Source: Octopus vulgaris (Eukaryota). Taken from it: 64,000 bases of DNA. Each line of letters starts with the position of its first letter. Position 1 is the first letter of the stretch. Positions 1 through 62,862 of this stretch are shown here, piece after piece. The notes below the pieces were generated by a model, which was given only the letters and a program-made list of their open reading frames with translations, was not told the origin of the DNA and did no database searches. The DNA lies in NCBI GenBank assembly GCA_951406725.2, contig OX597832.1:44454001-44518000 (forward strand), read 5' to 3'. Position numbers and translations under genes: made by a program.

Positions 1-484
1 GATGATGATGATGATGATGATGATGATTTGTTTGCATCTTGCTTAATATTTTCAAATATTTTTTAAAAATGGAAATGTTGGTTTGTAAATATTAAATGAA
101 GCCCCATCACTGGAATTTCAGTAACAGCAACAAAAATAGAAAAGTATATGGGAATTTCTTCACTGATTCTTGTTCTACTTACAGATAGAACATTCTAGAA
201 TAGACGGTATATATTCTCTTTGCTACCTTGAGAATATATATGTATATGGTACATTGGCTGTTAACTTTCCAAAAGTTTTGTAATGCCGCAATTATTGAAA
301 CAATGTAATTAGTTTATCAAGATCCAAGACATAATTACGAAGGGTGAACACGGGCGCTCAAAAATTTCGAATGTCTAAATTTAAAACAAGGAATATAAAA
401 GCCAGATGCAATCAACACATACATAATAATGGAATATTTACTGAGATACTTTATAAATATGAAACATACAAATATTGATTTCAC

Positions 485-490
485 TTTATT
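485..490 (-). promoter_or_regulatory. Candidate serpin polyadenylation signal AATAAA
   Basis: TTTATT on + about 320 nt past the stop, retained at the equivalent position in the paralogs; the region is AT-rich so chance matches are possible. Confidence 0.4.
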
Positions 491-808
491 CAACGAGAAA
501 ATAACGTTTACAGGCAACAGTAGATATATTGTTAAAATAGTAAACTTGCAAAGAAAGGATACTTTAAAAAGTGTCAAATTTTTCTGTCAATGTATAGCAT
601 ATACAAATTCATAATATTGATTTGGATTAATGTGGTATTATAATATATCATTGAATAGATATGACCTTGGTTCTACACGATTACAATTATAATGTCCTAA
701 GTCATTTTACTAAAAAAACGATTCTAAATAAATTTGTTCAGTTACATTCTCCACATAATACAATGTAGTATTCCATAAGAGGGAAATCTTTGACAGGGCA
801 ATATTATC

Positions 809-1969
809 TTATGTTGTAGGATTTGTTACTTTACCAATGAAATGGATAATTTTAGTTCGGTTGTCAACAATTAAAAATGTGAATGGGTGATTGACATCAA
901 AATCCATACAATTTAGAAAATAATCATCACACATCAAGCACCCAATATCAGTTGCAGCTGCAGCTTCCGTCCCTTCTTCATTAACATCAACAAATGCTTT
1001 ATGAAACATTTCACTGGCATAAATATTATTCTCACCACCAGTCATTCCAGATAAATCAGCTTTTAGAGGATCAAAAATATCAGGGAGTCCAAGGTTTTTC
1101 AAAACTTCAACCAACTGAAAACTACTCTCTAAACGAAATTTTGGCATATGTAATAGTAGACTCATCATTTTAAATCCTTTTCTGTCAACAATGTCTTTGA
1201 GAAATTGAGCATTAATCTCCTTCTCTAAAGCAGCAAGACCATTGATTTCATTGGGAAGAATTACAAACATACTAAATGCTTTTCCTATATAGGGTAACTC
1301 AACGACTTTATAGTTGTCGCTTATTTTGGTATTAAAATCTTCAGATGTATACATAAAATCATGAAATACAGTCTTGTCAGAACGTAAATAAAACTTTGTA
1401 GATTCTGTTGCATGTTCTGAGAATATTTTAGCCCACATTCCTTTAAAGTATACAGCATTAATAAGAACTAGAATTGATTGAGGTGTCAACCTTCCACTTT
1501 GTAACAGATCAGTAATTTTGTTATTTGTGTTATTCTTAACCCAATCATTAATAGTTATTCTTGTCTTCTCAGCATTTGTTATGAAGTCTACATTTTCAAT
1601 ATCTGAAAAGAAATATTTTACCATGTTGTTCTTGTAGTCTTCAGAAATAGGGAATATTTCACTGGCATACAAACGATTCACTGAATTGAATGTGACAAGT
1701 TTATCTGAGTTTTTCAAAAGTGAAAAATATTCTTTAAAAGCCAAAGCTACAGAATCTGGATTTGATGTTATCTTCAAAACATTTTCAATCTGTTTGGCAG
1801 AGTTTTGTCTTGCTCCCAAATAAACCATTGATAAAACAGTAGCAACACTGAATGGTGACATGAAGACATTTTCATTGGTTCCTGTAGCCACAGCTTGGTA
1901 AAGACTGTTTGTAAAATAATCAATTGAAGCAGCAAGGTTACCGATGTCTTGTTTCTCTGCTGAGTCCAT
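809..1969 (-). CDS. Serpin copy 1 (intact, 386 aa); RCL EEGTEAAAAT-DIGCLMC|DDYFLNC
   Basis: Serpin motifs SPFSV, INAVYFKGxW, hinge EEGTEAAAAT and signature FDVNHPFTFLI...FIGKVTNP in an uninterrupted ORF. Confidence 0.95.
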   Translation of the reverse strand: MDSAEKQDIGNLAASIDYFTNSLYQAVATGTNENVFMSPFSVATVLSMVYLGARQNSAKQIENVLKITSNPDSVALAFKEYFSLLKNSDKLVTFNSVNRLYASEIFPISEDYKNNMVKYFFSDIENVDFITNAEKTRITINDWVKNNTNNKITDLLQSGRLTPQSILVLINAVYFKGMWAKIFSEHATESTKFYLRSDKTVFHDFMYTSEDFNTKISDNYKVVELPYIGKAFSMFVILPNEINGLAALEKEINAQFLKDIVDRKGFKMMSLLLHMPKFRLESSFQLVEVLKNLGLPDIFDPLKADLSGMTGGENNIYASEMFHKAFVDVNEEGTEAAAATDIGCLMCDDYFLNCMDFDVNHPFTFLIVDNRTKIIHFIGKVTNPTT

Positions 1970-1986
1970 ATTGTATACGATAGTGT

Positions 1987-2030
1987 CTGGAGAATATAGA
2001 ATATGAAGAGAAAATATACGAAATAAATTC
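1987..2030 (-). promoter_or_regulatory. Putative 3' splice acceptor 17 nt upstream of the serpin ATG (conserved in all copies)
   Basis: Minus strand reads TTTTCTCTTCATATTCTATATTCTCCAG|ACACTATCGTATACAATATG, a pyrimidine tract plus YAG. Confidence 0.7.
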
Positions 2031-2550
2031 TTGCAAACATTTCAAAATAATTTATTAGACATTACTGTAATTAAAGACATCTATAAAAGCAAAGTCTGAA
2101 ATCTCTTCTGATCAAACTCTAATATTAACTTTTACATGAACATATTTCTTAACATAACACAGAGTTAATGTGTTTTAAACAGTTTTTAAAATAATTAAAA
2201 ATTTATATGATTAATTAATATAACCATTTTTTCTCCAATATTTATCTGATATTTGGCACATATCTTAAAAGTTTCATTTATAAGATGATGTTGGAACTTG
2301 TCCATGTTAGCATTTCAGAGACAAATTTGAATGGAGCAGGTTTAGTTTTCATTTTTTGCATATATGGTATCAATTACAATGATATACTCCACCTGCTGAG
2401 AGCCTGGTCAAATACTTGCAACAAAATGACATCCTCAAAAAAGGCCTTAATGTGCCTGGAGGTGATGTTGAACTAATTAGTGTAATACCAAGCTAGACCG
2501 GATCCTGTAAACCTAGACTCAATGGTTAATATTTAGTTTGTTGAATGACC

Positions 2551-2829
2551 TGTGGGATGACGTCAGCAGCTGGGTGCGTTGACCGGAAGCTGGGGCAACC
2601 GGAAGGGGTTGCTGTCAGGCGTGCGCAGGCAGCGGTCAATTGGGCCTTTCCAACGTGGGTCGTCCAAATGACAAGACGTGTGAGGACGGTCGCGAAGGGT
2701 CTGGATGAGCAGCTGCTATCTTTAGTGTTCGGGTTGGAGCTGTGTCGAAGGATTAGCTACCACAGAAGGGTCTCCATCACGAGGAAGAGAAGGTAGGTGC
2801 CTTTATATTCAAATAGTGCACACACCACA
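2551..2829. mobile_element. Solo LTR, 279 bp
   Basis: TGTGG...CCACA termini, 5-bp TSD TGACC, empty site at ~34514. Confidence 0.85.
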
Positions 2830-3589
2830 TGACCGTGTGAAGGAGAGGTGACGAGAATGGCTACTTTAGTACGCCGCACGGTCGATTACGATAAGTAGGA
2901 AAAAGGATGAATGAATATGAATGCCAGCAGGAAAAGAGAGACACAACCAGTCGAATGTTGAAGAGAAAGATTTTATTGATAGGTTAACATGTGTGTCTGT
3001 ATGTGTGTCATGTATACATAATAATAGACAGGCCGTCATGTATACATAATGTGTGTGCAGAAACGTGGATGTATGCGTGTGCGATGAGTACAGAGCATTG
3101 AAAGAGTCTATAATAGGACGTTAGAAGAATGCAATGCAGAGCAAGTTGAGGCACGTGTCATGCGTGAAGCTGTGGCTACTATGCAGAGCCGGTTACTTGG
3201 TACAGAAGGTTCTCGCAGGTTGTATCTGCTGTTAACCATGGTGAAATAATTCATGAACAGTGTTGAGTAGAGGCCATTGATTGGTTAAAATCTGAAAAAT
3301 TAAACTACGTTAAACTTACAAATTACAATTTTCTCAAGAGAGCCAAGAGAACAAATGTTTCATTTTGACACATTCTACCAGAATACGAAGTTTAAAAGTG
3401 TTTAGTTAACTAGAAATTGTGTTGAAAACTGCCGTTCAAAAGAAAAAGATCCTCCTTTTCTAATTGAAACCATTTTTCTGCAAGGCCTTCCACATGACCA
3501 TATCACACCATCCGACAAACTTTTTTTGGCTACATCCTTCAAGGAACATTTCTAGAGAATAGTAAGTTGAAGTGCGAGCAGATTATTGA

Positions 3590-4452
3590 TATTTTATATT
3601 ATTGAGCAAAAGAAGATTTAGCAAAGGGAATAGCCCAAGAATGCCGTATAGATTGGAGAAATTTTTACTGTGATATATGTGCAGAATATTATGTTGCACA
3701 AAACATTAAGCTCGGAGGGCCAAACCGAATTGTAGAGATAGATGAAAGAGCGTTTGTTAGAAGAAAATATAATGTTGGCCATCAGGTTAAAACGCAGTGG
3801 GTTTTTGGTGCTTTGGAAAGGGATACTAGAAGATGGTATTTGGTGGCAGTGGAAGATCGGACTGCGGACACTCTTTTAGAAATTATACAAGAGCGTATAT
3901 AGCCTGGTACAACTGTAATTTCTGACCTCTGGCGTTCGTATAATACGCTCAATCAGCTAGGATATAGGCATTTGACTGTGAATCATCATCATCATCATCA
4001 TCATCGTTTAACGTCCGTTCTCCATGCTAGCATGGGTTGGACGGTTCGACCGGGGTTCTGGGAAGCCAGAAGGCTGCACCAGGCTCCAGTCTAATCTGGC
4101 AATGTTTCTACAGCTGGATGCCCTTCCTAACGCCAACCACTCCGTGAGTGTAGTGGGTGCTTTTTACGTGCCACCTGCACAGGTGCCATGCGGAGCTGGC
4201 AACGGCCACGGTCAGATTGGTGTATTTTATGTGCCACCGGCAATAAATTTTGTTGATCCGGTAACATTTGCCACAACCAACCACATAGAATGTTTATGGA
4301 AGCATGTAAAGAATCGTAACAAAAGAGAAAATGGAACAGCCCGAAATTTACTTCAATCCCATCTCATTGAATTCATGTGGCATTATGAATTTAAGGACGA
4401 AATCTTTGGAAAGTTATTGGAACAAATTCAACATCTATACCCATGCATTTGA
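3590..4452 (+). mobile_element. Merlin (IS1016/IS1595-like DDE) transposase relic interrupted by a SINE
   Basis: Translates as LGGPNRIVEIDERAFVRRKYNVG...QWVFGALER...I*PGTTVISDLWRSY...HLTVNH / NFVDPVTFATTNHIECLWKHVK. Confidence 0.85.
3983..4240 (-). mobile_element. SINE/RTE-tail family with (GAT)n tail (also ~12140-12355, 16320-16578, 21960-22366, 39630-40030, 56475-56637)
   Basis: Recurrent CCATGCTAGCATGGGTTGGACGG...CTGGATGCCCTTCCTAACGCCAACCACTCC block next to CAT repeats. Confidence 0.8.
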
Positions 4453-6258
4453 AACCTTACAGAATAGAAGTATCTACAAAGCATTTGTTTTATATTTCGT
4501 TAAATTCTCTCAGTTGAAAATTATATTTTTATATTCTAAATAATTTGCAATTTCAGAAAATATATTAACTTTGCGTTTTTTAATTTGATAAATTCTACGG
4601 AAACAAACAAGTGACGTCAGATTGACGTCACACTTTTTTTCACTTTCCTCCTGACAGCTAATTCCGTAGTGGTGCCTGTAACAGGATGTAGCGCAACAAC
4701 TTGCTCTTTTGTTTTCTTACACACACGCCGCCTCAATTAAGGTCGGGTAAACATTTAAATTAACATTTTTTTGTTGATGCTCGTATCCCACCAATGGAGC
4801 ACGCGTGTGGCCCACTGGTATCATCATTAAAGGGGATGAGGAGTAAAAAAAAAAATCATAAATTTTCCAAACCATTTTTTCATAACAAGATGTTTCCCAT
4901 CATTTCGAAGGTTGTGGTGAAAAACAATCGGGAAAACCCTGTCCAAAAGGGAGAAATTCCAACTTATGTGGTCTTCTTGATCGGAAACTCCTCTCCCTGC
5001 TCCCTTAAAATTTTTTCCAAAAAAAATATCTTTATAATCTTAATCTATGCCGTTTGGAAGGTATTTATATAAAATTTCACTAAAAGATATCCATTTTCCT
5101 GAAAGTTATGAGGGAAAAAATAGGATTGTGTGAATTTTGCGAAAGTCCTCTCCTCATCCCTGTTTCGTTTACGCAAATTTTGTTTTCCAGATTCGTTAAC
5201 TTTTTTCTTCTTGTTCTGGTGGCCGGGTATTAAACTTGTAGTGTGATGGATGAAGAAGACAACAGAAAAAGAAGCAACGGGAGAAAGAAATACAAAAGGC
5301 CTTACCTCTTCGAAATCAGCGGTCTCTTTCACGAATTCGACACGTCTTAACGCTTTCCCGTCTATGTTGGAACTGTCCTGCTTGACAAACTCCTGCTGCG
5401 CATGCATTCTGCAGTCTTCCGCCCACTTCATCTATCACCAGTGCACCACTTAGCTCATCACATCCTATAACACCGACTGCCAACACCACAAAACTAGGTA
5501 GTAACCGATTCGCTGGCAGAAAAGTTAGCACGCCGGGCGAAATGCTTAGCGGTATTTCGTCAGCCATACGTTGTGAGTTCAAATTCCGCCGAGGTCGAGT
5601 TTGCCTTTCATCCTTTCGGGGTCGATAAATTAAGTACCAGTTACGCACTGGGCTTGATGTAATGGACTGAATACCTATGTCTGTCCTTGTTTGTCCCCCC
5701 TGTGTTTAGCCCCTTGTGGGCAATAAAGAAATAGGTATCCCAGACACTCCTATTAGATTGATACAGAAATTTAACCGTTTTCTTATTTTTTAAGGTAGGA
5801 TATGATTTTAGGAAGATTTGGCTGGTCTATTGACCACGAAGGGTTTTTCTCTTTGACTCATATCTAGATTTTGATGTCAGCCAAGTTTTTTAAAGAATGA
5901 AAGTTTTCGAAAATGAACACGTTAATAATAAATAATTTCCATTATTTTATTTCATACAAAAACATTCGGTTTGGAATGTCGTCGATAATGAAGAGACTTT
6001 GCGAAGAAAGTTCGAGCGACGTGGCAATGAATGTGAAGTAATTAGTATGTCGAGTTAGGTTCCTTGCTGATAGAGAGTTAAAATGGGAGAAACTTTTTTG
6101 TTTTAAAATTTCTATAGCGCAAAATAGAAGTTAACTGCAGCATAAAGTAGAAAAGAAGTTCTGCCGACGACCACGTAGACTGCAGTTGACTCCAGAAAGT
6201 GTACGGTAGACTAATTAACGATCTCGGCGTATAATGTGTGATGAACCAGAAATAATAA

Positions 6259-6657
6259 TCTCTCTATATATAAAACTGAGAACGTGTGTCTGTCTGTGTT
6301 TCCCTAAAACTTGAGAACTACGTAACCAATTTCATTCGAATTTTACACATGCCTTACTGAGGGTCCATGTAGTTTCATGGGCAAAAAACTGTTCAACTTA
6401 TTGCCTAGGGCGAGCCCATAGCAATATCATATCTTCTCCACTATGATTCCCTAAAACTTGAGAACTACAAAACCAATTTTATTCAAATTTTACACATGCC
6501 TTACTTTGGGACCATGTAGTTTCATGGGTAAAAAAACGTTCAACTTCTTGCCTAGAGCGAGCCCATAGCAATATCATATCTTCTCCACTATTTCTGTATT
6601 ACGTGTTAAAAGTGAAACAAAACATTTCTCTACTTTATGTCAGATACTTTCACTTTA
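6259..6657 (+). mobile_element. Helitron 5' portion, truncated at the duplication boundary
   Basis: Matches 20069-20468, including the ~150-bp internal dimer. Confidence 0.7.
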
Positions 6658-6680
6658 CTTTACCTTTCGTAAGATAGAAA

Positions 6681-6821
6681 ATGGAAGAAGAAGAAGAAGA
6701 AGAAGAAGAAGAAGAAGAAGAAGAAGAAGAAGAAGAAGAAAATGGAGAAGAAGAAAAAGAAGAAGGAGAAGGAGAAGAAGAAAAAGAAGAAGAAGAAACA
6801 GATGGCGAAGAAGAAGAAGAA

Positions 6822-6854
<33 letters not shown>

Positions 6855-6980
6855 AAGAAGATGGAGAAGAAGGAGGAGGAAGAAGAGAAGAAGATGGAGA
6901 AGAAGGAGGAGGAGGAGAAGGAGAAGAAGAAAAAGAAGTTGATGATGATGACGACGACAGCAATGATGAAGATGATGATG
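6681..6980. repeat. (GAA)n/(GAG)n/(GAT)n purine-rich microsatellite
   Basis: Seen directly in the sequence. Confidence 0.95.
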
Positions 6981-8859: not shown

Positions 8860-9250
8860 GCCCATGAGCAAATTATTGAATGGTTAAAAAGGTACAATCT
8901 TCTTTTCCAAAGACATACAACATCTCAAAAGAGTCCAGAAGCTGGCTACCCACATGGTTCTTGGTCTCAAGCATTTGTCTTATGAAGAAAGGCTGAAGAC
9001 GCTCGACCTTTATTCTCTAGAAAAACGCCGCCGCCGTGGTGATCTCATTCTCGCTCACAACATCATAAGCAGAAAGTGTAACCTCTCGAAAGAGCTGTTC
9101 TTCACTCCTGCTCCAGAGCATCGGCTGCGGGGTCACTCCAAAAGCTCTATCTGCGACGAATTCATCTCAATCGAAGGAGAGGGGCTTTCTCCGTCCGGGA
9201 TGCGGATCCATGGAATAAGCAGCCGGACGAGATAGTGAAGATGCCGACGA
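8860..9250 (+). mobile_element. CR1-clade LINE ORF2 3' fragment
   Basis: KDIQHLKRVQKLATHMVLGLKHLSYEERLKTLDLYSLEKRRRRGDLI...RLRGHS, typical of the CR1 RT C-terminus. Confidence 0.85.
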
Positions 9251-12325: not shown

Positions 12326-12356
<31 letters not shown>

Positions 12357-13135
12357 GTTTGCATCTTGCTTAATATTTTCAAATATTTTTTAAAAATGGA
12401 AATGTTGGTTTGTAAATATTAAATGAAGCCCCATCACTGGAATTTCAGTAACAGCAACAAAAATAGAAAAGTATATGGGAATTTCTTCACTGATTCTTGT
12501 TCTACTTACAGATAGAACATTCTAGAATAGACGGTATATATTCTCTTTGCTACCTTGAGAATATATATGTATATGGTACATTGGCTGTTAACTTTCCAAA
12601 AGTTTTGTAATGCCGCAATTATTGAAACAATGTAATTAGTTTATCAAGATCCAAGACATAATTACGAAGGGTGAACACGGGCGCTCAAAAATTTCGAATG
12701 TCTAAATTTAAAACAAAGAATATAAAAGCCAGATGCAATCAACACATACATAATAATGGAATATTTACTGAGATACTTTATTAACATGAAACATACAAAT
12801 ATTGATTTCACTTTATTCAACGAGAAAATAACGTTTACAGGCAACAGTAGATATATTGTTAAAATAGTAAACTTGCAAAGAAAGGATACTTTAAAAAGTG
12901 TCAAATTTTTCTGTCAATGTATAGCATATACAAATTCATAATATTGATTTGGATTAATGTGGTATTATAATATATCATTGAATAGATATGACCTTGGTTC
13001 TACACGATTACAATTATAATGTCCTAAGTCATTTTACTAAAAAAACGATTCTAAATAAATTTGTTCAGTTACATTCTCCACATAATACAATGTAGTATTC
13101 CATAAGAGGGAAATCTTTGACAGGGCAATATCATC

Positions 13136-14297
13136 TTATGTTGAAGGATTTGTTACTTTACCAATGAAATGGATCATTTTAGTTCGGTTGTCAACAATTA
13201 AAAATGTGAATGGGTGATTGACATCAAAATCCATACGATTTAGAAAAAAATTATTACACAACAAGCACCCAAAATCAGTTGCAGCTGCAGCTTCCGTCCC
13301 TTCTTCATTAACATCAACAAATGCTTTATGAAACATTTCACTGGCATAAATATTCTTCTCACCACCAGTCATTCCAGATAAATCAGCTTTTAGAGGATCA
13401 AAAATATCAGAGAGTCCAAGCTTTTTCAAAACTTCACCCAACTTAAAACTACGCTCTAAACGAAATTTTGGCATATGTAAATCTAGACCCATCATTTGAA
13501 ATCCTTTTCTGTCAACAATGTCTTTGAGAAATTGAGCATTAATCTCCTTCTCTAAAGCAGCAAGACCATTGATTTCATTGGGAAGAATTACAAACATACT
13601 AAATGCTTCTCCTATATAAGGGTAACTCAACCACTTTATAGTTGTCGCTTATTTTTGTATTAAATCCTTCAGATATATACATAAAATCATGAGATACAGT
13701 CTTGTCAGAGCTTAAATAAAACTTTCTAGATGATGTTGCTTCTTCTGAGAATATTTCAGCCCACGTTCCTTTAAAGTACACAGCATTAATAAGAACTAGA
13801 ACCGATTGAGGTGTCAAACTTCCACTTGGTAACAGATCAGTAATTTTGTTATTTGTGTTATTCTTAACCCAATCATTAATAGTAATTCTTGTCTTCTCAG
13901 CATTTGTTATGAAGTCTACATTTTCAATATCTGAAAAGAAATATTTTACCATGTTGTTCTTGTAGTCTTCAGAAATAGGGAATTTTTCATTGGCGCACAA
14001 ACGATTCACTGAATTGGATGTGACGAGTTTATCTGAGTTTTTCAAAAGTGAAAAATATTCTTTAAAAGCTAAAGCTACAGAATCTGGATTTGATGTTATC
14101 TTCAAAATATTTTCAAACTGTTTGGCAGAGTTTTGTCTTGCTCCCAAATAAACCATTGATAAAACAGTAGCAACACTGAATGGTGACATGAAGACATTTT
14201 CATTGGTTCCTGTAGCCACAGCTTGGTAAAGACTGTTTGTAAAATAATCAATTGAAGCAGCAAGGTTACCGATGTCTTGTTTCTCTGCTGAGTCCAT
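13136..14297 (-). pseudogene. Serpin copy 2 with +1 frameshift near 13620 (possibly an assembly error); RCL AT-DFGCLLC|NNFFLNR
   Basis: ORFs 13599..14297 and 13136..13630 together give a full serpin; it reads TATAAGGGTAAC where paralogs read TATAGGGTAAC or TATAAGGTAAC. Confidence 0.85.
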
Positions 14298-23310: not shown

Positions 23311-23531
23311 GAAAAAAGAGAATAATGATTAAATATTTACTGAGATGCTTTATTAATATAAACAGAAATAAAACTTACAAGCATTGATTTCACTTTATTC
23401 AATAAGTAAATAACGTTTACAGGCAACAATAAGTATATTGTTAAAATAATAAAAGATACGTTCAAGAGTGTAATATCTTTCCGTAAATGTACAACACATA
23501 CAAATTGATAATGTTGATTAAAATTAAAACT

Positions 23532-24867: not shown

Positions 24868-25046
24868 CTATATCGTGGGGTTTGTTACTTTACCAATGAA
24901 ATGGATCATTTTAGTTCGGTCATCAACAACTAAAAACGTGAATGGGTGATTGACATCAAATTGCATCCCAATTCTCGACATATAATTTGAGACCACCATT
25001 CCACTTGCAGCAGCAGCTTCCGTTCCTTCGTATATAGTCGTATCTG
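24868..25046 (-). pseudogene. Serpin copy 3, in-frame 996-bp deletion leaving splice acceptor plus hinge/RCL/C-terminus only
   Basis: Matches copy 6 on both sides of the junction at ~25029 (GTTCCTTC|GTATAT); ORF is 87 aa versus 419 aa for the equivalent ORF of copy 6. Confidence 0.9.
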
Positions 25047-26834: not shown

Positions 26835-27988
26835 TCATGTTGTAGGATCTGTTACTTTACCAATGAAATGGATCATTTTAGTTCGGTCATCAACAACTAA
26901 AAACGTGAATGGGTGATTGACATCAAATTGCATCCCAATTCTCGACATATAATTTGAGACCACCATTCCACTTGCAGCAGCAGCTTCCGTTCCTTCTTCA
27001 TTAACATCAACAAATGCTTTATGAAACATTTCACTGGCATAAATATTCTTCTCACCACCAGTCATCCCAGATAAATCAGCTTTTAGAGGATCAAAAATAT
27101 CAGGGAGTCCAAGCTTTTTCAAAACATCACCCAACTTAAAACTACTCTCTAATGAAATTTTGGCATATTTAATTCTAGAAGCATCATTTTAAATCCTTTT
27201 CTGTCAACAATGTCTTTGAGAAATTGAGCATTAATCTCCTTCTCTAAAGCAGCAAGACCATTGATTTCATTGGGAAGAATTACAAACATACTAAATGCTT
27301 TTCCTATATAAAGTAACTCAACAACTTTATAGTTGTTGCGTATTTTTGTATTAAAATCTTCAGATATATACATAAAATCATGAGATACAGTCTTGTCAGA
27401 GCTTAAATAAAACTTTCTAGATGATGTTGCTTGTTCTGGGAATTTTTCAGCTCACATTCCTTTGAAGTATACAGCATTAATAAGAACTAGAACCGACTGA
27501 GGTGTCAAACTTCCACTTGGTAACAGATCGGTAATTTTGTTATTTGTGTTATTCTTAACCCAATCATTAATAGTAATTCTTGTCTTCTCAGCATTTGTTA
27601 TGAAGTCTACATTTTCAATATCTGAAAAGAAATATTTTACCATGTTGTTCTTGTAGTCTTCTGAAATAGGGAATTTTTCACTGGCATACAAACGATTCAC
27701 TGAATTGAATGTGACAAGTTTATCTGAGTTTTTCAAAAGTGAAAAATATTCTTTAAAAGCCAAAGCTACAGAATCTGGATTTGATGTTATCTTCAAAACA
27801 TTTTCAAACTGTTTGGCAGAGTTTTGTCTTGCTCCCAAATAAACCATTGATAAAACAGTAGCAACACTGAATGGTGACATGAAGACATTTTCATTGGTTC
27901 CTGTAGCCACAGCTTGATAAAGACTGTTTGTAAAATAATCAATTGAAGCAGCAAGGTTACCGATGTCTTGTTTCTCTGCTGAGTCCAT
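26835..27988 (-). pseudogene. Serpin copy 4, nonsense codon (Trp>TGA at 27452) plus 1-bp deletion near 27151; RCL AS-GMVVSNY|MSRIG
   Basis: Three consecutive ORF pieces reconstitute a serpin; two independent lesions. Confidence 0.9.
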
Positions 27989-32210: not shown

Positions 32211-33374
32211 TTATGTTGTAGGATTTGTCACTTTACCAATGAAATGGATCATTTTAGTTTGGTTGTCAACAATTAAAAATGTGAATGGATGATTGACGTC
32301 AAAATCCATACAATTTATAAAAAATCGTCCTGACACTTTCCTCCTTTCCATTCCACTTGCAGCAGCAGCTTCCGTTCCTTCTTCATTAACATTAACAAAT
32401 GCTTTATGAAACATTTCACTGGCATAAGTATTCTTCTTACCATCACTCATTCCAGATAAATCTGCTTTTCGAGAATCAAAAATATCAGAGAGTCCAAGCT
32501 TTTTCAAAACATCACGCAACTTAAAACTACTCTCTAAACGAAATTTTGGCATATGTAAATCTAGACCCATCATTTGAAATCCTTTTCTGTCTACAATGTC
32601 TTTGAGAAATTCAGCATTAATCTCCTTCTCTAAAGCAGCAAGACCATTGATGTCATTGGGAAGAATTACAAACATACTAAATGCTTTTCCTCTATAAAAT
32701 AACTCAACAACTTTATAGTTGTTGCTTATTTTTGTATTAAAAGCTTCAGATATATACATAAAATCATGAGATACAGTCTTCTCAGAGCGTAAATAAAACT
32801 TTCTAGATGATGTTGCTTGTTCTAGGAATTTTTCAGCCCACATTCCTTTGAAGTATACAGCATTAATAAGAACTAGAACCGTCAGAGTGGTCAAACTTCC
32901 ACTTGGTAACAGATCGGTAATTTTGTTATTTGTGTTATTCTTAACCCAATCATTAATAGTTATTCTTGTCTTCTCAGTATTTGTTATAAAGTCTACATTT
33001 TCAATATCTGAAAAGAAATATTTTACCATGTTGTTCTTGTAGTCTTCTGAAATAGGGAATATTTCACTGGCATACAAACGATTCACTAAATTGGATGTGA
33101 CAAGTTTATCTGAGTTTTTCAAAAGTGAAAAATATTCTTTAAAAGCTAAAGCTACAGAATCTGGATTTGATGTTATCTTCAAAACATTTTCAAACTGTTT
33201 GGCAGAGTTTTGTCTTGCTCCCAAATAAACCATTGATAAAACAGTAGCAACACTGAATGGTGACATGAAGACATTTTCATTGGTTCCTGTAGCCACAGCT
33301 TGGTAAAGACTGTTTGTAAAATAATCAATTGAAGCAGCAAGGTTACCGATGTCTTGTTTTTCTGCTGAGTCCAT
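32211..33374 (-). CDS. Serpin copy 5 (intact, 387 aa); basic RCL AS-GMERRKV|SGRFFINC
   Basis: Complete ORF; start placed at the conserved MDSAEK Met just downstream of the acceptor-like sequence. Confidence 0.95.
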   Translation of the reverse strand: MDSAEKQDIGNLAASIDYFTNSLYQAVATGTNENVFMSPFSVATVLSMVYLGARQNSAKQFENVLKITSNPDSVALAFKEYFSLLKNSDKLVTSNLVNRLYASEIFPISEDYKNNMVKYFFSDIENVDFITNTEKTRITINDWVKNNTNNKITDLLPSGSLTTLTVLVLINAVYFKGMWAEKFLEQATSSRKFYLRSEKTVSHDFMYISEAFNTKISNNYKVVELFYRGKAFSMFVILPNDINGLAALEKEINAEFLKDIVDRKGFQMMGLDLHMPKFRLESSFKLRDVLKKLGLSDIFDSRKADLSGMSDGKKNTYASEMFHKAFVNVNEEGTEAAAASGMERRKVSGRFFINCMDFDVNHPFTFLIVDNQTKMIHFIGKVTNPTT

Positions 33375-42458: not shown

Positions 42459-43613
42459 CTATATCGTGGGGTTTGTTACTTTACCAATGAAATGGATCAT
42501 TTTAGTTCGGTCATCAACAACTAAAAACGTGAATGGGTGATTGACATCAAATTGCATCCCAATTCTTGACATATAATTTGAGACCACCATTCCACTTGCA
42601 GCAGCAGCTTCCGTTCCTTCTTCATTAACATCAACAAATGCTTTATGAAACATTTCACTGGCATAAATATTCTTCTCACCACCAGTCATTCCAGATAAAT
42701 CAGCTTTTTGAGGATCAAAAATATCAGGGAGTCCAAGTTTTTTCAAAACTGCACCCAACTGAAAACTACTCTCTAAACGAAATTTTGGCATATTTAATTC
42801 TAGAAGCATCGTTTGAAATCCTTTTCTGTCAACAATGTCTTTGAGAAATTTAGCATTAATCTCCTTCTCTAAAGCAGCAAGACCATTGTTTTCATTGGGA
42901 AGAATTACAAACATACTAAATGCTTTTCCAATATAAGGTAACTCAACGACTTTATAGTTGTCGCTTATTTTTGTATTAAAATCTTCAGATTTATACATAA
43001 AATCATGAGATACAGTCTTGTCAGAGCTTAAATGAAACTTTCTAGATGTTGTTGCATGTTCTGGGAATTTTTTAGCCCACGTTCCTTTAAAATACACAGC
43101 ATTAATAAGAACTAGAACCGATTGAAGTGTCAAACTTCCACTTGGTAACAGATCGGTAATTTTGTTATTTGTGTTATTCTTTACCCAATCATTAATAGTT
43201 ATTCTTGTTTTCTCAGCATTTGTTATGAAATCTACATTTTCAATATCTGAAAAGAAATATTTTACCATGTTGTTCTTGTAGTCTTCAGAAAAGGGGAATT
43301 TTTCACTGGCATACAAACGATTCACGGAATTGAATGTGACAAGTTTATCTGAGTTTTGCAAAAGTGAAAAATATTCTTTAAAAGCCAAAGCTACAGAATC
43401 TGGATTTGATGTTATCTTCAAAACATTTTCAAACTGTTTGGCAGAGTTTTGTCTTGCTCCCAAATAAACCATTGATAAAACAGTAGCAACACTGAATGGT
43501 GACATGAAGACATTTTCATTGGTTCCTGTAGCCACAGCTTGATAAAGACTGTTTGTAAAATAATCAATTGAAGCAGCAAGGTTACCGATGTCTTGTTTCT
43601 CTGCTGAGTCCAT
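42459..43613 (-). CDS. Serpin copy 6 (intact, 384 aa); RCL AS-GMVVSNY|MSRIG
   Basis: Complete ORF with all serpin motifs. Confidence 0.95.
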   Translation of the reverse strand: MDSAEKQDIGNLAASIDYFTNSLYQAVATGTNENVFMSPFSVATVLSMVYLGARQNSAKQFENVLKITSNPDSVALAFKEYFSLLQNSDKLVTFNSVNRLYASEKFPFSEDYKNNMVKYFFSDIENVDFITNAEKTRITINDWVKNNTNNKITDLLPSGSLTLQSVLVLINAVYFKGTWAKKFPEHATTSRKFHLSSDKTVSHDFMYKSEDFNTKISDNYKVVELPYIGKAFSMFVILPNENNGLAALEKEINAKFLKDIVDRKGFQTMLLELNMPKFRLESSFQLGAVLKKLGLPDIFDPQKADLSGMTGGEKNIYASEMFHKAFVDVNEEGTEAAAASGMVVSNYMSRIGMQFDVNHPFTFLVVDDRTKMIHFIGKVTNPTI

Positions 43614-47197: not shown

Positions 47198-48350
47198 TTA
47201 TGTTGTAGGATTTGTTACTTTACCAATGAAATGGATCATTTTAGTTCGGTTATCAACAATTAAAAATGTGAATGGGTGATTGACCTCAAAATCCATACCA
47301 ATTTGTGCGGAAACTGCCATCACGACCATTCCAGTTGCAGCAGCAGCTTCCGTTCCTTCTTCATTAACATCAACAAATGCTTTATGAAACATTTCACTGG
47401 CATAAATATTCTTCTCACCACCAGTCATTCCAGATAAATCAGCTTTTTGAGGATCAAAAATATCAGAGAGTCCAAGCTTTTTCAAAACATCACCCAACTG
47501 AAAACTACTCTCTAAACGAAATTTTGGCATATTTAATTCTAGAAGCATCGTTTGAAATCCTTTTCTGTCCACAATGTCTTTGAGAAATTGAGCATTAATC
47601 TCCTTCTCTAAAGCAGCAAGACCATTGATTTCATTTGGAAGAATTACAAACATACTAAATGCTTTTCCAATATAAGGTAACTCAACAACTTTATAGTTGC
47701 TGCTTATTTTTGTATTAAAATCTTCAGATATATACATAAAATCATGAGATACAGTCTTGTCAGAGCTTAAATAAAACTTTCTAGATGATGTTGCTTGTTC
47801 TGGGAATTTTTCAGCCCACATTCCTTTAAAGTACACAGCATTAATAAGAACTAGAACCGACTGAGGTGTCAAACTTCCACTTGGTAACAGATCAGTAATT
47901 TTGTTATTTGTGTTATTCTTTACCCAATCATTAATAGTAATTCTTGTCTTCTCAGCATTTGTTATGAAGTCTACATCTTCAATATCTGAAAAGAAATATT
48001 TTACCATGTTGTTCTTGTAGTCTTCTGAAATAGGGAATTTTTCATTGACGCACAAACGATTCACTGAATTTAATGTGACAAGTTTCTCTGAGTTTTTGAG
48101 AAGTGAAAAATATTCTTTAAAAGCTAAAGCTACAGAATCTGGATTTGATGTTATCTTCAAAACATTTTCAAACTGTTTGGCAGAGTTTTGTCGCTCCCAA
48201 ATAAACCATTGATAAAACAGTAGCAACACTGAATGGTGACATGAAGACATTTTCATTGGTTCCTGTAGCCACAGCTTGATAAAGACTGTTTGTAAAATAA
48301 TCAATTGAAGCAGCAAGGTTACCAATGTCTTGTTTCTTTGCTGAGTCCAT
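47198..48350 (-). pseudogene. Serpin copy 7 with 2-bp deletion at ~48192 (possibly an assembly error); RCL AT-GMVVMAV|SAQIG
   Basis: Span is 1153 bp versus 1155 bp for intact copies; TTTTGTCGCTCCC versus TTTTGTCGCGCTCCC in copy 11. Confidence 0.85.
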
Positions 48351-50208: not shown

Positions 50209-51363
50209 TTATGTTGTAGGATTTGTTACTTTACCAATGAAATGGATCATTTTAGTTCGGTTGTCAACAATTAAAAATGTGAATGGGTGATTGACATCAA
50301 AATCCATACCAATTTGTGCTGACATTAACGTCATGACCATTCCAGTTGCAGCAGCAGCTTCTGTTCCTTCTTCATTAACATCAACAAATGCTTTATGAAA
50401 CATTTCACTGGCATAAATATTCTTCTCACCACCAGTCATTCCAGATAAATCAGCTTTTAGAGGATCAAAAATATCAGAGAGTCCAAGCTTTTTCAAAACT
50501 TCACCCAACTGAAAACTACTCTCTAAACGAAATTTTGGCATATTTAATTCTAGAAGCATCGTTTGAAATCCTTTTCTGTCTATAATATCTTTGAGAAATT
50601 GAGCATTAATCTCCTTCTCTAAAGCAGCAAGACCATTGATGTCATTGGGAAGAATTACAAACATACTAAATGCTTTCCCTATATAAGGTAACTCAACCAC
50701 TTTATAGTTGTCGCTTATTTTTGTATTAAAATCTTCAAATTTATACATAAAATCATGAGATACAGTCTTGTCAGAGCTTAAATAAAACTTTCTAGATGAT
50801 GTTGCTTGTTCTGGGAATTTTTCAGCCCACATTCCTTTAAAGTACACAGCATTAATAAGAACTAGAACCGACTGAGGTGTCAAACTTCCACTTGGTAACA
50901 GATCAGTAATTTTGTTATTTGTGTTATTCTTTACCCAATCATTAATAGTTATTCTTGTCTTCTCAGCATTTGTTATGAAGTCTACATTTTCAATATCTGA
51001 AAAGAAATATTTTACCATGTTGTTCTTGTAGTCTTCTGAAATAGGGAATTTTTCATTGGCACACAAACGATTCACTGAATTGAATGTGACAAGTTTATCT
51101 GATGTTTTCAAAAGTGAAAAATATTCTTTAAAAGTCAAAGCTACAGAATCTGGATTTGATGTTATCTTCAAAACATTTTCAAATTGCTTGGAAGAGTTTT
51201 GTCTTGCTCCCAAATAAACCATTGATAAAACAGTAGCAACACTGAATGGTGACATGAAGACATTTTCATTGGTTCCTGTAGCCACAGCTTGATAAAGACT
51301 GTTTGTAAAATAATCAATTGAAGCAGCAAGGTTACCAATGTCTTGTTTCTTTGCTGAGTCCAT
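50209..51363 (-). CDS. Serpin copy 8 (intact, 384 aa); RCL AT-GMVMTLM|SAQIG
   Basis: Complete ORF with all serpin motifs. Confidence 0.95.
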   Translation of the reverse strand: MDSAKKQDIGNLAASIDYFTNSLYQAVATGTNENVFMSPFSVATVLSMVYLGARQNSSKQFENVLKITSNPDSVALTFKEYFSLLKTSDKLVTFNSVNRLCANEKFPISEDYKNNMVKYFFSDIENVDFITNAEKTRITINDWVKNNTNNKITDLLPSGSLTPQSVLVLINAVYFKGMWAEKFPEQATSSRKFYLSSDKTVSHDFMYKFEDFNTKISDNYKVVELPYIGKAFSMFVILPNDINGLAALEKEINAQFLKDIIDRKGFQTMLLELNMPKFRLESSFQLGEVLKKLGLSDIFDPLKADLSGMTGGEKNIYASEMFHKAFVDVNEEGTEAAAATGMVMTLMSAQIGMDFDVNHPFTFLIVDNRTKMIHFIGKVTNPTT

Positions 51364-53222: not shown

Positions 53223-54377
53223 TTATGTTGTAGGATTTGTTACTTTACCAATGAAATGGATCATTTTAGTTCGGTTATCAACAATTAAAAATGTGAATGG
53301 GTGATTGACATCAAAATCCATACCAATTTGTGCTGACATTAACGTCATGACCATTCCAGTTGCAGCAGCAGCTTCTGTTCCTTCTTCATTAACATCAACA
53401 AATGCTTTATGAAACATTTCACTGGCATAAATATTCTTTTCACCACCAGTCATTCCAGATAAATCAGCTTTTAGAGGATCAAAAATATCAGAGAGTCCAA
53501 GCTTTTTCAAAACTTCACCCAACTGAAAACTACTCTCTAAACGAAATTTTGGCATATTTAATTCTAGAAGCATCGTTTGAAATCCTTTTCTGTCTATAAT
53601 ATCTTTGAGAAATTGAGCATTAATCTCCTTCTCTAAAGCAGCAAGACCATTGATGTCATTGGGAAGAATTACAAACATACTAAATGCTTTCCCTATATAA
53701 GGTAACTCAACCACTTTATAGTTGTCGCTTATTTTGGTATTAAAATCTTCAGATATATACATAAAATCATGAGATACAGTCTTGTCAGAGCTTAAATAAA
53801 ACTTTCTAGATGATGTTGCTTGTTCTGGGAATTTTTCAGCCCACATTCCTTTAAAGTACACAGCATTAATAAGAACTAGAACCGACTGAGGTGTCAAACT
53901 TCCACTTGGTAACAGATCAGTAATTTTGTTATTTGTGTTATTCTTTACCCAATCATTAATAGTTATTCTTGTCTTCTCAGCATTTGTTATGAAGTCTACA
54001 TTTTCAATATCTGAAAAGAAATATTTTACCATGTTGTTCTTGTAGTCTTCAGAAATAGGGAATTTTTCATTGGCACACAAACGATTCACTGAATTGAATG
54101 TGACAAGTTTATCTGATGTTTTCAAAAGTGAAAAATATTCTTTAAAAGCCAAAGCTACAGAATCTGGATTTGATGTTATCTTCAAAACATTTTCAAATTG
54201 CTTGGAAGAGTTTTGTCTTGCTCCCAAATAAACCATTGATAAAACAGTAGCAACACTGAATGGTGACATGAAGACATTTTCATTGGTTCCTGTAGCCACA
54301 GCTTGATAAAGACTGTTTGTAAAATAATCAATTGAAGCAGCAAGGTTACCAATGTCTTGTTTCTTTGCTGAGTCCAT
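53223..54377 (-). CDS. Serpin copy 9 (intact, 384 aa); RCL identical to copy 8
   Basis: Complete ORF; differs from copy 8 at about 3 residues. Confidence 0.95.
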   Translation of the reverse strand: MDSAKKQDIGNLAASIDYFTNSLYQAVATGTNENVFMSPFSVATVLSMVYLGARQNSSKQFENVLKITSNPDSVALAFKEYFSLLKTSDKLVTFNSVNRLCANEKFPISEDYKNNMVKYFFSDIENVDFITNAEKTRITINDWVKNNTNNKITDLLPSGSLTPQSVLVLINAVYFKGMWAEKFPEQATSSRKFYLSSDKTVSHDFMYISEDFNTKISDNYKVVELPYIGKAFSMFVILPNDINGLAALEKEINAQFLKDIIDRKGFQTMLLELNMPKFRLESSFQLGEVLKKLGLSDIFDPLKADLSGMTGGEKNIYASEMFHKAFVDVNEEGTEAAAATGMVMTLMSAQIGMDFDVNHPFTFLIVDNRTKMIHFIGKVTNPTT

Positions 54378-58681: not shown

Positions 58682-59836
58682 TTATGTTGTAGGATTTGTT
58701 ACTTTACCAATGAAATGGATCATTTTAGTTCGGTTATCAACAATTAAAAATGTGAATGGGTGATTGACATCAAATTTCATACCAATTTTTGCACAGAATC
58801 CCACCATGACCATTCCAGCTGCAGCAGCAGCTTCCGTTCCTTCTTCATTAACATCAACAAATGCTTTATGAAACATTTCACTGGCATAAATATTCTTCTC
58901 ACCACCAGTCATTCCAGATAAATCAGCTTTTAGAGGATCAAAAATATCAGGGAGTCCAAGCTTTTTCAAAACTTCACCCAACTGAAAACTACTCTCTAAA
59001 CGAAATTTTGGCATATTTAATTCTAGAAGCATCGTTTGAAATCCTTTTCTGTCCACAATATCTTTGAGAAATTGAGCATTAATCTCCTTCTCTAAAGCAG
59101 CAAGACCATTGATTTCATTTGGGAAGAATTACAAACATACTAAATGCTTTTCCTATATAAGGTAACTCAACAACTTTATAGTTGTCGCTTATTTTTGTAT
59201 TAAAATCTTCAGATATATACATAAAATCATGAGATACAGTCTTGTCAGAGCTTAAATAAAACTTTCTAGATGATGTTGCTTGTTCTGGGAATTTTTCAGC
59301 CCACATTCCTTTGAAGTATACAGCATTAATAAGAACTAGAACCGATTGAGGTGTCAAACTTCCACTTGGTAACAGATCAGTAATTTTGTTATTTGTGTTA
59401 TTCTTACCCAATCATTAATAGTTATTCTTGTCTTCTCAGCATTTGTTATAAAGTCTACATTTTCAATATCTGAAAAGAAATATTTTACCATGTTGTTCTT
59501 GTAGTCTTCTGAAATAGGGAATTTTTCACTGGCATACAAACGATTCACTGAATTGAATGTGACAAGTTTATCTGAGTTTTTCAAAAGTGAAAAATATTCT
59601 TTAAAAGCCAAAGCTACAGAATCTGGATTTGATGTTATCTTCAAAACATTTTCAAACTGTTTGGCAGAGTTTTGTCTTGCTCCCAAATAAACCATTGATA
59701 AAACAGTAGCAACACTGAATGGTGACATGAAGACATTTTCATTGGTTCCTGTAGCCACAGCTTGATAAAGACTGTTTGTAAAATAATCAATTGAAGCAGC
59801 AAGGTTACCGATGTCTTGTTTCTCTGCTGAGTCCAT
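58682..59836 (-). pseudogene. Serpin copy 10 with a -1 (~59405) and a +1 (~59120) indel, possibly assembly errors; RCL AA-GMVMVGF|CAKIG
   Basis: Three ORF pieces spanning exactly 1155 bp; no nonsense codons in the serpin frames. Confidence 0.85.
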
Positions 59837-61707: not shown

Positions 61708-62862
61708 TTATGTTGAAGGATTTGTTACTTTACCAATGAAATGGATCATTTTAGTTCGGTTGTCAACAATTAAAAATGTGAATGGGTGATTGACATCAAA
61801 ATCCATACCAATTTGTGCTGACAATGCCATCATGACCATTCCAGTTGCAGCAGCAGCTTCCGTTCCTTCTTCATTAACATCAACAAATGCTTTATGAAAC
61901 ATTTCACTGGCATAAATATTCTTCTCACCACCAGTCATTCCAGATAAATCAGCTTTTAGAGGATCAAAAATATCAGGGAGTCCAAGCTTTTTCAAAACAT
62001 CACCCAACTGAAAACTACTCTCTAAACGAAATTTTGGCATATTTAATTCTAGAAACATCGTTTCAAATCCTTTTCTGTCTATAATGTCCTTGAGAAATTC
62101 AGCATTAATCTCCTTCTCTAAAGCAGCAAGACCATTGATTTCATTTGGAAGAATTACAAACATACTAAATGCTTTTCCAATATAAGGTAACTCAACGACT
62201 TTATAGTTGTCGCTTATTTTTGTATTAAAATCTTCAGATATATACATAAAATCATGAGATACAGTCTTGTCAGAGCTTAAATAAAACTTTCTAGATGATG
62301 TTGCTTGTTCTGGGAATTTTTCAGCCCACGTTCCTTTGAAGTATACAGCATTAATAAGAACTAGAACCGATTGAGGTGTCAAACTTCCACTTGGTAACAG
62401 ATCAGTAATTTTGTTATTTGTGTTATTCTTTACCCAATCATTAATAGTTATTCTCGTCTTTTCAGCATTTGTTATAAAGTCTACATTTTCAATATCTGAA
62501 AAGAAATATTTTACCATGTTGTTCTTGTAGTCTTCTGAAGTAGAGAATTTTTCATTGGCATACAAACGATTCACTGAATTGAATGTGACAAGTTTCTCTG
62601 AGTTTTTGAGAAGTGAAAAATATTCTTTAAAAGCCAAAGCGACAGAATCTGGATTTGATGTTATCTTCAAAACATTTTCAAACTGTTTGGCAGAGTTTTG
62701 TCGCGCTCCCAAATAAACCATTGATAAAACAGTAGCAACACTGAATGGTGACATGAAGACATTTTCATTGGTTCCTGTAGCCACAGCTTGATAAAGACTG
62801 TTTGTAAAATAATCAATTGAAGCAGCAAGGTTACCGATGTCTTGTTTCTTTGCTGAGTCCAT
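61708..62862 (-). CDS. Serpin copy 11 (intact, 384 aa); RCL AT-GMVMMAL|SAQIG
   Basis: Complete ORF with all serpin motifs. Confidence 0.95.
   Translation of the reverse strand: MDSAKKQDIGNLAASIDYFTNSLYQAVATGTNENVFMSPFSVATVLSMVYLGARQNSAKQFENVLKITSNPDSVALAFKEYFSLLKNSEKLVTFNSVNRLYANEKFSTSEDYKNNMVKYFFSDIENVDFITNAEKTRITINDWVKNNTNNKITDLLPSGSLTPQSVLVLINAVYFKGTWAEKFPEQATSSRKFYLSSDKTVSHDFMYISEDFNTKISDNYKVVELPYIGKAFSMFVILPNEINGLAALEKEINAEFLKDIIDRKGFETMFLELNMPKFRLESSFQLGDVLKKLGLPDIFDPLKADLSGMTGGEKNIYASEMFHKAFVDVNEEGTEAAAATGMVMMALSAQIGMDFDVNHPFTFLIVDNRTKMIHFIGKVTNPST

What the first reader, a model, noticed from the sequence alone, without database searches (positions are those of the whole stretch)
910..946. 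Six of six RCL substitutions between sister copies 1 and 2 change amino acids, while their flanks are almost identical
Seen: 910-946 versus 13237-13273 differ at 6 of 37 nt, all nonsynonymous (I>F, M>L, D>N, D>N, Y>F, C>R). By eye, the adjacent ~800 bp of non-coding DNA (1-808 vs 12328-13135) differs at only about 4 positions. The coding loop is diverging much faster than nearby non-coding DNA. Inference: strong recent positive selection, or a short conversion tract from an unseen paralog.
Basis: seen in the sequence. Interest (0 to 1): 0.8.

Follow-up and report, generated by a model that had tools for sequence, protein, structure and literature searches.

The report
Fast-changing bait loops in octopus serpins
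Two neighbouring copies of an octopus protease-inhibitor (serpin) gene differ by six amino-acid-changing letters in the bait loop that meets the protease, likely because selection favours new loops while gene conversion likely reshuffles the rest of the gene; this pattern is long known from other animals' serpin clusters.

Summary
In detail: 910-946 and 13237-13273 differ at 6 of 37 nt, all nonsynonymous, and the 3' flanks differ at 4 of 808. The window is an Octopus tandem serpin array with 10 full-length copies. '6 of 6' alone is weak (neutral P 0.11-0.32). The flank chosen is the most alike stretch: upstream DNA differs by 2.6% and the coding sequence by 4.3%, synonymous sites included. The loop is still faster than every yardstick (14% of nonsynonymous sites; P 0.02 to 1e-6). 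A third sister puts 5 of 6 changes on copy 1; the predicted P1 (Cys) is unchanged. Both copies are patchworks of other paralogues, and copy 2 has a frameshift. No donor loop was found, but no genome was held. All 6 short-loop types have an identical O. sinensis counterpart; 0 of 6 long-loop types do. Best reading: diversifying selection on serpin loops plus gene conversion, known since Hill and Hastie 1987 and Ohta 1994. The scan noted similar arrays in three bacteria. New member of a known kind.

The parts
910..946 (-). Six nonsynonymous differences in the reactive-centre loop of copy 1 (P6 I/F, P2 M/L, P1' D/N, P2' D/N, P3' Y/F, P7' C/R)
   Evidence: P numbers counted from the hinge consensus quoted in PMC2770083
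13237..13273 (-). The matching loop segment of copy 2
809..1969 (-). Copy 1 (c01): intact 386-aa serpin CDS, long-loop class
   Evidence: PF00079, E 7e-107; model pLDDT 91.9
953..979 (-). Hinge P17-P9 of copy 1 (E331-A339), matching the inhibitory consensus
929..931 (-). Predicted P1 residue Cys347, same in copy 1, copy 2 and P0123; aligns to SERPINB3 Ser354
   Evidence: P1 assignment is inferred from the hinge count
1..808 (.). 3' flank of copy 1, 4 mismatches to 12328-13135; more alike than upstream DNA
1337..1474 (-). Segment of copy 1 (codons 166-211) sharing I166, M178, K181, H186, R196, F202, D211 with paralogue P0135/P0005 rather than with copy 2: likely conversion tract
   Evidence: contigs of a P0135-like locus carry copy-1 letters here (X16 record 17, inferred from depths)
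1415..1428 (-). Tract of at most 14 nt where the window's copy 1 has copy-2 letters (I182, S184) but the copy-1 contigs of X1 and X2 have K182, P184: polymorphic micro-conversion or polishing error
1987..1988 (-). AG splice acceptor after a pyrimidine tract, 17 nt before the ATG; present before all 10 full-length copies
   Evidence: named isoforms join a signal peptide at this point
1970..6657 (.). Upstream DNA shared by copy 1, copy 2 (14298-20470) and c05 (33375-38143); copy 1 vs copy 2 differ at 82 of 3160 three-way sites
13136..14297 (-). Copy 2 (c02): long-loop serpin with a one-base frameshift; scaffold 10 residues from O. sinensis P0134 and 12 from P0122c but 30 from copy 1
13618..13619 (.). 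Extra base that shifts the frame of copy 2 near codons 225-226
   Evidence: no laid contig showed the insertion (not proof of absence)
13408..13527 (-). Segment of copy 2 closer to c05 (4/120) than to copy 1 (10/120): likely conversion tract
32211..33374 (-). c05: intact 387-aa long-loop serpin
26835..27988 (-). c04: short-loop copy with a premature stop and a frameshift
42459..43613 (-). c06: intact 384-aa short-loop serpin
47198..48350 (-). c07: short-loop copy with a 2-nt deletion near codon 53; O. sinensis P0124 shows the same shifted N-terminus
50209..51363 (-). c08: intact short-loop serpin
53223..54377 (-). c09: intact short-loop serpin, loop identical to c08
58682..59836 (-). c11: short-loop copy with two frameshifts
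61708..62862 (-). c12: intact short-loop serpin
24869..25044 (-). Internally deleted c06-like fragment that keeps only the start and the loop end

Best explanation
The six changes lie in the bait loop of two octopus serpin copies and were likely favoured by diversifying selection, mostly in copy 1, while gene conversion likely reshuffles the rest of the gene among neighbours. Shown: the genes are serpins with an inhibitory-type hinge; the loop diverges faster than scaffold, synonymous and flanking sites; each copy shares different segments with different paralogues. Inferred: copies 1 and 2 got their loop and 3' end from one recent ancestor (duplication, or conversion of copy 2's 3' end by the copy-1 lineage); copy 1 then gained I342, D348, D349, Y350 and C354 plus 11 private scaffold changes, several on sheet C under the loop, and most of those that alter charge make it more acidic. 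With P1 Cys kept, this would retune subsite and exosite contacts, for example toward a more cationic protease, rather than switch primary specificity. The target protease, and whether it is the host's or a parasite's, is unknown.
For: Loop pN 0.14 vs scaffold pN 0.039, gene pS 0.041, upstream 0.026 and local block 0.007 (P 0.008, 0.018, 0.0009, 1.5e-6). Third sister P0123 polarises 5 of 6 changes to copy 1; 5 seen vs 0.56 expected at copy 1's upstream rate (P 0.0003; 4 gives 0.003). Replicates in the long-loop class: c05 vs P0122a 3/18 vs 5/361 (P 0.004) while the c04-plus-fragment model between the same blocks is identical over 338 residues; c02 vs P0123 6/17 vs 17/367 (P 0.0002). 0 of 6 long-loop types but 6 of 6 short-loop types have an identical O. 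sinensis loop (P 0.002). 7-8 of 16 copy-1-derived changes lower charge vs 13% expected, and copy 1 has the most acidic loop and net charge of 25 sequences. Copy-1 tip scaffold omega 1.19 vs 0.29 background (P 0.006), with every column invariant in an 83-serpin alignment kept and a native-like model. Positions 270 and 272 (strand 267-276) are the most variable scaffold sites in 31 octopus serpins; copy-1 R160 and S270 align to SERPINB3 N167 and R279, listed as positively selected in PMC4136820 (overlap P 0.03, post hoc). Conversion: 41% of informative site pairs incompatible, reached by 0 of 200 no-recombination simulations; segment-wise nearest neighbours switch.
Against: 6 of 6 nonsynonymous is not significant by itself: only about 9 synonymous sites lie in the loop, so an old neutral tract cannot be excluded from this pair. 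In the short-loop class the loop omega is 2.9 only if it shares the scaffold's synonymous rate; given its own rate it is 0.62 and not different from 1. Copy-1 scaffold omega is not above 1 (P 0.76), and its 11 private changes equal the neutral expectation of 11.5 at the upstream rate. P1 is unchanged and three of six changes are conservative. C354R is a CpG transition and C354 is shared with c05. Copy 2 is frameshifted, so it may be free of selection. A neighbour-site recombination test was not significant (P 0.36). Codon models assume one tree, which conversion violates. The charge and SERPINB3-overlap tests were chosen after seeing the data. Net charge of copy 1 (-12) is close to P0134 (-11) and copy 2 (-10).
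Confidence: 0.6

Rival explanations
1. The loop differences are older than the duplication. They came in by a short conversion tract from an unseen paralogue, or the duplication captured two old alleles whose loops had already diverged, and the flanks were homogenised afterwards.
For: Short polymorphic tracts occur in this gene (1415-1428). Copy 2's scaffold relatives P0134 and P0122c carry unrelated 387-type loops, so whole loops are exchanged. Synonymous sites in short-class loops are also diverged (rate 4.9x), as Ohta's account predicts. A further block of the array appears to lie left of the window.
Against: No donor in the window or among the loops of the named octopus proteins retrieved. 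D348-D349 and 11 scaffold residues are private to copy 1 among 31 sequences, so a donor would itself need to have evolved them. The directional charge shift spans loop and scaffold.
Confidence: 0.24
2. Relaxed constraint plus chance: redundant copies drift, the exposed loop tolerates any change, and the cluster of six is a fluctuation.
For: Whole-gene dN/dS between the copies is about 1.1; a 37-nt window with 6 changes arises by chance with P 0.39 in a blind scan; 4 of 10 copies are broken; PMC2770083 reads labile loops in Drosophila clusters as partial redundancy.
Against: Relaxation cannot exceed the neutral rate, yet the loop exceeds all neutral yardsticks and does so again in c05 vs P0122a. 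Copy 1 keeps an open frame and all invariant residues and recurs almost unchanged in contigs of two studies.
Confidence: 0.11
3. Assembly artefact: copies 1 and 2 are two haplotypes of one locus placed in tandem, or the differences are consensus errors.
For: Flank divergence of 0.5-2.6% could be allelic; the extra base in copy 2 looks like a blend of the two spellings found in copy 1 and in other copies and was not seen in any laid contig.
Against: The copy-1 loop is held exactly in X1 and X2 and two copy-2 letters in X16. Copy 2's scaffold markers I64 and E230 recur in O. sinensis P0134. Upstream DNA is shared three ways with c05. Even as alleles the six changes would be real and would point to balancing selection.
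Confidence: 0.05

Closest known systems
Accelerated evolution of serpin reactive centres (Hill and Hastie 1987; Ohta 1994), as summarised in PMC3966226 and PMC4136820
   Same: Duplicated serpins with a hypervariable loop, explained by selection together with gene conversion.
   Different: Described there from vertebrate and insect serpins; here a cephalopod array, with the change caught between very recent copies. I saw the two originals only as references and as described in those papers.
Human and ape SERPINB3/SERPINB4 tandem duplicates (PMC4136820; PDB 2zv6, 4zk0)
   Same: Young tandem pair with selected sites in the loop (351-358) and at scaffold sites 167 and 279, which align to copy-1 loop residues, R160 and S270.
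   Different: About 35% identity only; SERPINB3/B4 have known target proteases and differ at P1 (recalled), whereas P1 Cys is shared here. Related octopus isoforms have a signal-peptide leader; clade B serpins do not (recalled).
Drosophila serpin clusters, Spn42D with labile Spn42Db/Dd loops beside conserved ones (PMC2770083)
   Same: One cluster holds loops conserved across species and loops that change quickly, as with the short-loop and long-loop classes here.
   Different: Old duplicates with little copy-number change, against recent near-identical copies with conversion here.
Selection against gene conversion at a target site (Innan's RHCE/RHD model, as described in PMC3966226)
   Same: A peak of fixed differences inside homogenised sequence.
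   Different: Here many paralogues exchange sequence, and no population sample was available to separate shared polymorphism from fixed differences.
Insect serpins with alternative loop exons (Manduca serpin-1, Drosophila Spn42Da, PpSerpin-1; PMC2770083, PMC10513286)
   Same: Loop diversity produced from one locus; named O. sinensis isoforms X1-X3 share one signal peptide on different serpin bodies.
   Different: There only the loop exon alternates; here each exon is a whole serpin domain, and shared-leader splicing is only suggested by annotation.

Membership tests
Serpin superfamily (PF00079) | Profile match over the whole domain | tested here: met
   E 6.7e-107, residues 17-384
Serpin superfamily (PF00079) | Serpin fold with an exposed loop | tested here: met
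   Model pLDDT 91.9, loop 336-349 below 50; TM 0.92 to antithrombin 1oyh, 0.88 to SERPINB3 2zv6
Inhibitory serpins | Hinge consensus P17-P9 E[EKR]G[TS]x(AGS)4 | tested here: met
   EEGTEAAAA in copies 1 and 2; consensus from PMC2770083
Inhibitory serpins | Cleavage at P1-P1' and covalent trapping of a protease | not testable with these tools
   No assay; P1 Cys347 is inferred from the hinge count and the alignment to SERPINB3
Serpin clusters with accelerated loop evolution | Loop amino-acid change faster than the scaffold between paralogues | tested here: met
   copy 1 vs 2, c05 vs P0122a, c02 vs P0123
Serpin clusters with accelerated loop evolution | dN above dS within the loop itself | tested here: inconclusive
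   6 N, 0 S in about 9 synonymous sites, P 0.11-0.32; short-loop class omega 2.9 or 0.62 depending on the model
Serpin clusters with accelerated loop evolution | Gene conversion among paralogues | tested here: met
   Incompatibility 0.41, 0 of 200 simulations reach it; switching nearest neighbours; the neighbour-site test alone was not significant
Vertebrate clade B (ov-serpins), suggested by the label 'leukocyte elastase inhibitor-like' | No cleavable N-terminal signal peptide (recalled) and vertebrate clade ancestry | tested here: inconclusive
   Related octopus isoforms carry a hydrophobic leader; copy 1's own first exon was not found; no tree with vertebrate clades was built. Not filed under clade B.
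Alternatively spliced serpin cassettes | One leader joined to mutually exclusive exons in transcripts | tested here: inconclusive
   Acceptor before all 10 copies and no leader exon found in 64 kb; shared leader in named isoforms; no spliced reads seen (one search covered 780-1820 only)

The most novel reading that the evidence does not exclude
The array is a two-speed protease-inhibitor repertoire read from a shared signal-peptide exon: whole-domain serpin exons are chosen by alternative splicing, the short-loop exons keep fixed baits for host proteases, and the long-loop exons are a diversifying arm whose loops are swapped by conversion and refined by positive selection within O. vulgaris. 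Copy 1 is a recently selected, expressed, acid-shifted inhibitor aimed at a cationic protease of a parasite or microbe.
Probability: 0.2. Interest if true: 0.6.

Novelty: new member of a known kind. Interest (0 to 1): 0.3.

Why it matters
Fast loop evolution with gene conversion is a textbook serpin pattern, so a specialist would not be surprised by the finding itself. The value is local. Four library searches listed no paper whose title or abstract describes this octopus array. It offers recent duplicates with a conserved and a labile loop class side by side, which makes the old question of what drives loop turnover (host or parasite proteases) testable in a farmed cephalopod. Serpin transcripts are reported from O. 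vulgaris haemocytes and one rises with Aggregata load (PMC4199593, PMC5736919), though neither was tied to this array.

Tried and rejected
Whole-genome donor search: no genome held; only the window and the retrieved proteins were searched. Expression: no RNA holder listed. X1 and X2 gave few long contigs dominated by copy 1, unlike the many short paralogue contigs of X12 and X16, which is what a transcriptome would give, but the library type is only guessed. Absence of copy 1 in X12 and X16: no copy-1 letter at several private sites, but contigs drop variants and cannot show absence, so this is not used. Frameshift of copy 2: no laid contig showed it; not proof that it is an error. A-to-I-like bias: the copy-1-derived changes read are of mixed types, with no clear A-to-G excess by eye; dropped. 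P1 = Asp348 (caspase-type bait): needs a longer loop register than the hinge count gives and has Asp at P1'; speculation from recalled caspase preferences, not pursued. Signal-peptide exon: tblastn with seven leaders found no convincing hit in the window; the P0138 leader hits + strand repeats at 5047, 17366 and 36411, opposite to the genes. Neighbour-site recombination test: not significant. No complex prediction was run, as no target protease is known. Earlier notes on this genome: none.

Full report
What the region is. The window (35% GC) holds 10 full-length minus-strand copies of a serpin coding exon, one internally deleted fragment and several inverted partial copies. Copy 1 (809-1969) encodes a 386-residue serpin (PF00079, E 7e-107). 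Its closest homologues are Octopus sinensis, O. vulgaris and O. bimaculoides proteins at 86-89% identity (8000 candidates scored, best 120 listed). Named O. vulgaris proteins lie on a contig of the same length as the one holding copy 1, and P0128 contains the window's c07 to c02, so the window is most likely O. vulgaris. No whole genome was held. The model is a native-like serpin with an exposed low-confidence loop at 336-349.

The observation. It is correct: 6 of 37 nt differ between 910-946 and 13237-13273, giving I342F, M346L, D348N, D349N, Y350F and C354R, and 1-808 differs from 12328-13135 at 4 positions. Counting from the hinge consensus quoted in PMC2770083, these are P6, P2, P1', P2', P3' and P7'. 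The predicted P1, Cys347, is the same in both copies and aligns to SERPINB3 Ser354. Contigs from two studies hold the copy-1 loop exactly, and a third run holds copy-2 letters at 921 and 925 (4 of 24 listed runs; the tool hid 10 variant rows and 172 contig rows). One of these runs could be the assembly's own source.

How much is more than chance. Six of six nonsynonymous is expected 11-32% of the time under neutrality. Over the whole CDS the copies differ at 50 of 1161 nt, with pN 0.044 and pS 0.041. The densest 37-nt window is 1378-1418, not the loop, and a blind scan reaches six with P 0.39. The 3' flank is the most alike part of the duplication: 0.5% against 2.6% upstream (82 of 3160 sites, P 6e-5). 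Taken as a region named in advance, the loop (6 in about 42 nonsynonymous sites) still exceeds scaffold pN (P 0.008), gene pS (P 0.018), upstream DNA (P 0.0009) and the block 1-1083 in which it sits (7 of 1046, P 1.5e-6). The acceleration is therefore real, between about 3.5-fold and 24-fold depending on the yardstick.

Who changed. A third 386-residue sister outside the window, P0123, has F, M, N, K, F, R at the six sites. This puts five changes on copy 1 (349 by the shorter mutational path) and one on copy 2. Five is far above the 0.56 expected from copy 1's upstream rate (P 0.0003). Copy 1 also has 11 scaffold residues seen in none of 30 other octopus serpin sequences (9 window copies and 21 outside sequences; I left out fragments, truncated models, duplicates of window copies or of each other, and homologues under 80% identity). 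Five of the 11 (189, 191, 208, 270, 272) fall in strands 189-196, 199-216 and 267-276 of the model, which I take from general knowledge to be sheet C under the loop; bioRxiv 10.1101/391482 describes variable loop-facing residues on s2C and s3C. Of the 16 derived changes, 7-8 lower net charge against 13% expected (post hoc P 0.0004-0.003) and 1-2 raise it; copy 1 has the most acidic loop and net charge of 25 sequences, though only narrowly for net charge. Its scaffold branch has omega 1.19 against 0.29 elsewhere (P 0.006), not distinguishable from 1; 11 changes equal the neutral expectation at the upstream rate and exceed it only if the pair is as young as its nearest flanks.

Mosaic history. 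Copy 2's scaffold is 10 residues from O. sinensis P0134 and 12 from P0122c but 30 from copy 1, and those two relatives carry unrelated 387-type loops. Copy 1 shares seven residues in codons 166-211 with P0135; copy 2 is closer to c05 than to copy 1 over 1081-1200. The window's copy 1 has copy-2 letters at 1420 and 1425 where the copy-1 contigs of X1 and X2 do not, a tract of at most 14 nt. Among the 10 copies, 41% of informative site pairs are incompatible, a value reached by 0 of 200 simulations without recombination, although a neighbour-site test was not significant. So conversion is active, and a short tract from an unseen donor cannot be excluded. No donor loop was found in the window or among the retrieved octopus proteins. 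Copy 2 carries an extra base at 13618-13619 that looks like a blend of two spellings found in other copies and was seen in no laid contig; it may be a real frameshift or a consensus error.

Two classes of loop. Domain order in P0122 and accession order suggest that the block c05-c04-fragment-c02-c01 is repeated left of the window (inferred). Between the blocks the c04-plus-fragment model is identical over 338 residues, while c05 and P0122a differ at 3 of 18 loop and 5 of 361 scaffold residues (P 0.004). All 6 short-loop (384-residue) types have an identical loop among 13 O. sinensis proteins; none of the 6 long-loop (386/387) types does, the nearest being 6-12 edits away (P 0.002; P0009 and P0136 left out as truncated; the O. 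sinensis set may be incomplete). Against a simple reading, the short-loop class gives loop omega 2.9 if synonymous rate is shared with the scaffold but 0.62 if the loop has its own rate: those loops are old and shielded from homogenisation rather than quickly changing.

Mechanism. Most likely the long-loop serpins are under diversifying selection at the loop and nearby surface, on a background of ectopic conversion. Copy 1 would keep Cys at P1 but present a more acidic prime side and surface, retuning which protease it traps best. Faster loop change, mosaic ancestry and the charge shift are shown; selection as the cause, the P1 assignment, inhibitory activity and the target are inferred or unknown.

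Comparison with what is known. Ohta's review (PMC3966226, passages) states that reactive-centre hypervariability arises from gene conversion followed by selection and describes Innan's model of selection against conversion. The SERPINB3/B4 study (PMC4136820, passages) lists selected sites in the loop and at 167 and 279, which align to copy-1 R160 and S270. The Drosophilid survey (PMC2770083, passages) reports conserved and labile loops within one cluster. Hill and Hastie 1987 and Ohta 1994 I saw only as references and as described there. PMC5736919 and PMC4199593 (passages) report octopus serpin transcripts without linking them to this array. PMC10513286 I saw as abstract and outline, and 10.1101/391482 as passages. 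Searches for an octopus serpin array listed no paper that describes it in title or abstract; subscription journals are mostly absent from the library and no supplements were read. Earlier scan notes describe comparable arrays in three bacteria; they did not alter my reading.

Verdict. Real, partly as interpreted, and an instance of a known process in a lineage where I found no description. Interest 0.3.

Noticed in passing
window 1987-1988 and the same site before all 10 copies: Each copy starts with a conserved splice acceptor 17 nt before the ATG, no signal-peptide exon was found in 64 kb, and named O. sinensis isoforms X1-X3 share one leader on different serpin bodies. This hints at whole-domain alternative exons from a shared leader.
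   Followed up: partly
window 28460-29566, 46396-46623, 48815-49485, 51828-52498, 54848-56308, 60302-60983: Inverted, degenerate partial serpin copies (about 83-86% identical) sit head to head about 540 nt upstream of most short-loop copies; they could form long double-stranded RNA in a read-through transcript.
   Followed up: no
window 13618-13619: The frameshifting base in copy 2 looks like a superposition of the spelling in copy 1 and that in other copies; possibly a consensus error.
   Followed up: partly
window 1382-1500 in run X1: A second contig carries 13 of the 14 copy-2 letters of this segment while neighbouring contigs are copy-1 type, hinting at a recombinant allele; contig simplification could also produce this.
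   Followed up: partly
window 47198-48350 (c07): The 2-nt deletion near codon 53 gives the same shifted N-terminus as O. sinensis P0124, so the lesion likely predates the species split, yet the loop is identical in both.
   Followed up: partly
window 32211-33374 (c05): Loop with a basic run (ERRKV) unlike any other copy in the window; a near twin (P0122a) differs at three loop residues.
   Followed up: partly
codons 270 and 272 (copy 1 positions 1154-1162): The most variable scaffold sites in 31 octopus serpins (8 and 6 residue types), a likely exosite that changes with the loop.
   Followed up: partly
P0122, P0127, P0128: Public gene models fuse several array copies into single multi-domain proteins of 571-1736 residues, probably an annotation artefact of the shared acceptors.
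   Followed up: no
window 12328-26057 vs 31684-44250; 46620-63161: Nested duplications: a roughly 13-kb unit shared by c02 and c05 regions, and a roughly 3-kb unit repeated through the right end of the window.
   Followed up: partly
window 6670-6940 and 8888-9235: A long GAA-rich simple repeat and a short ORF that resembles the end of a LINE reverse transcriptase (recalled likeness, not searched).
   Followed up: no
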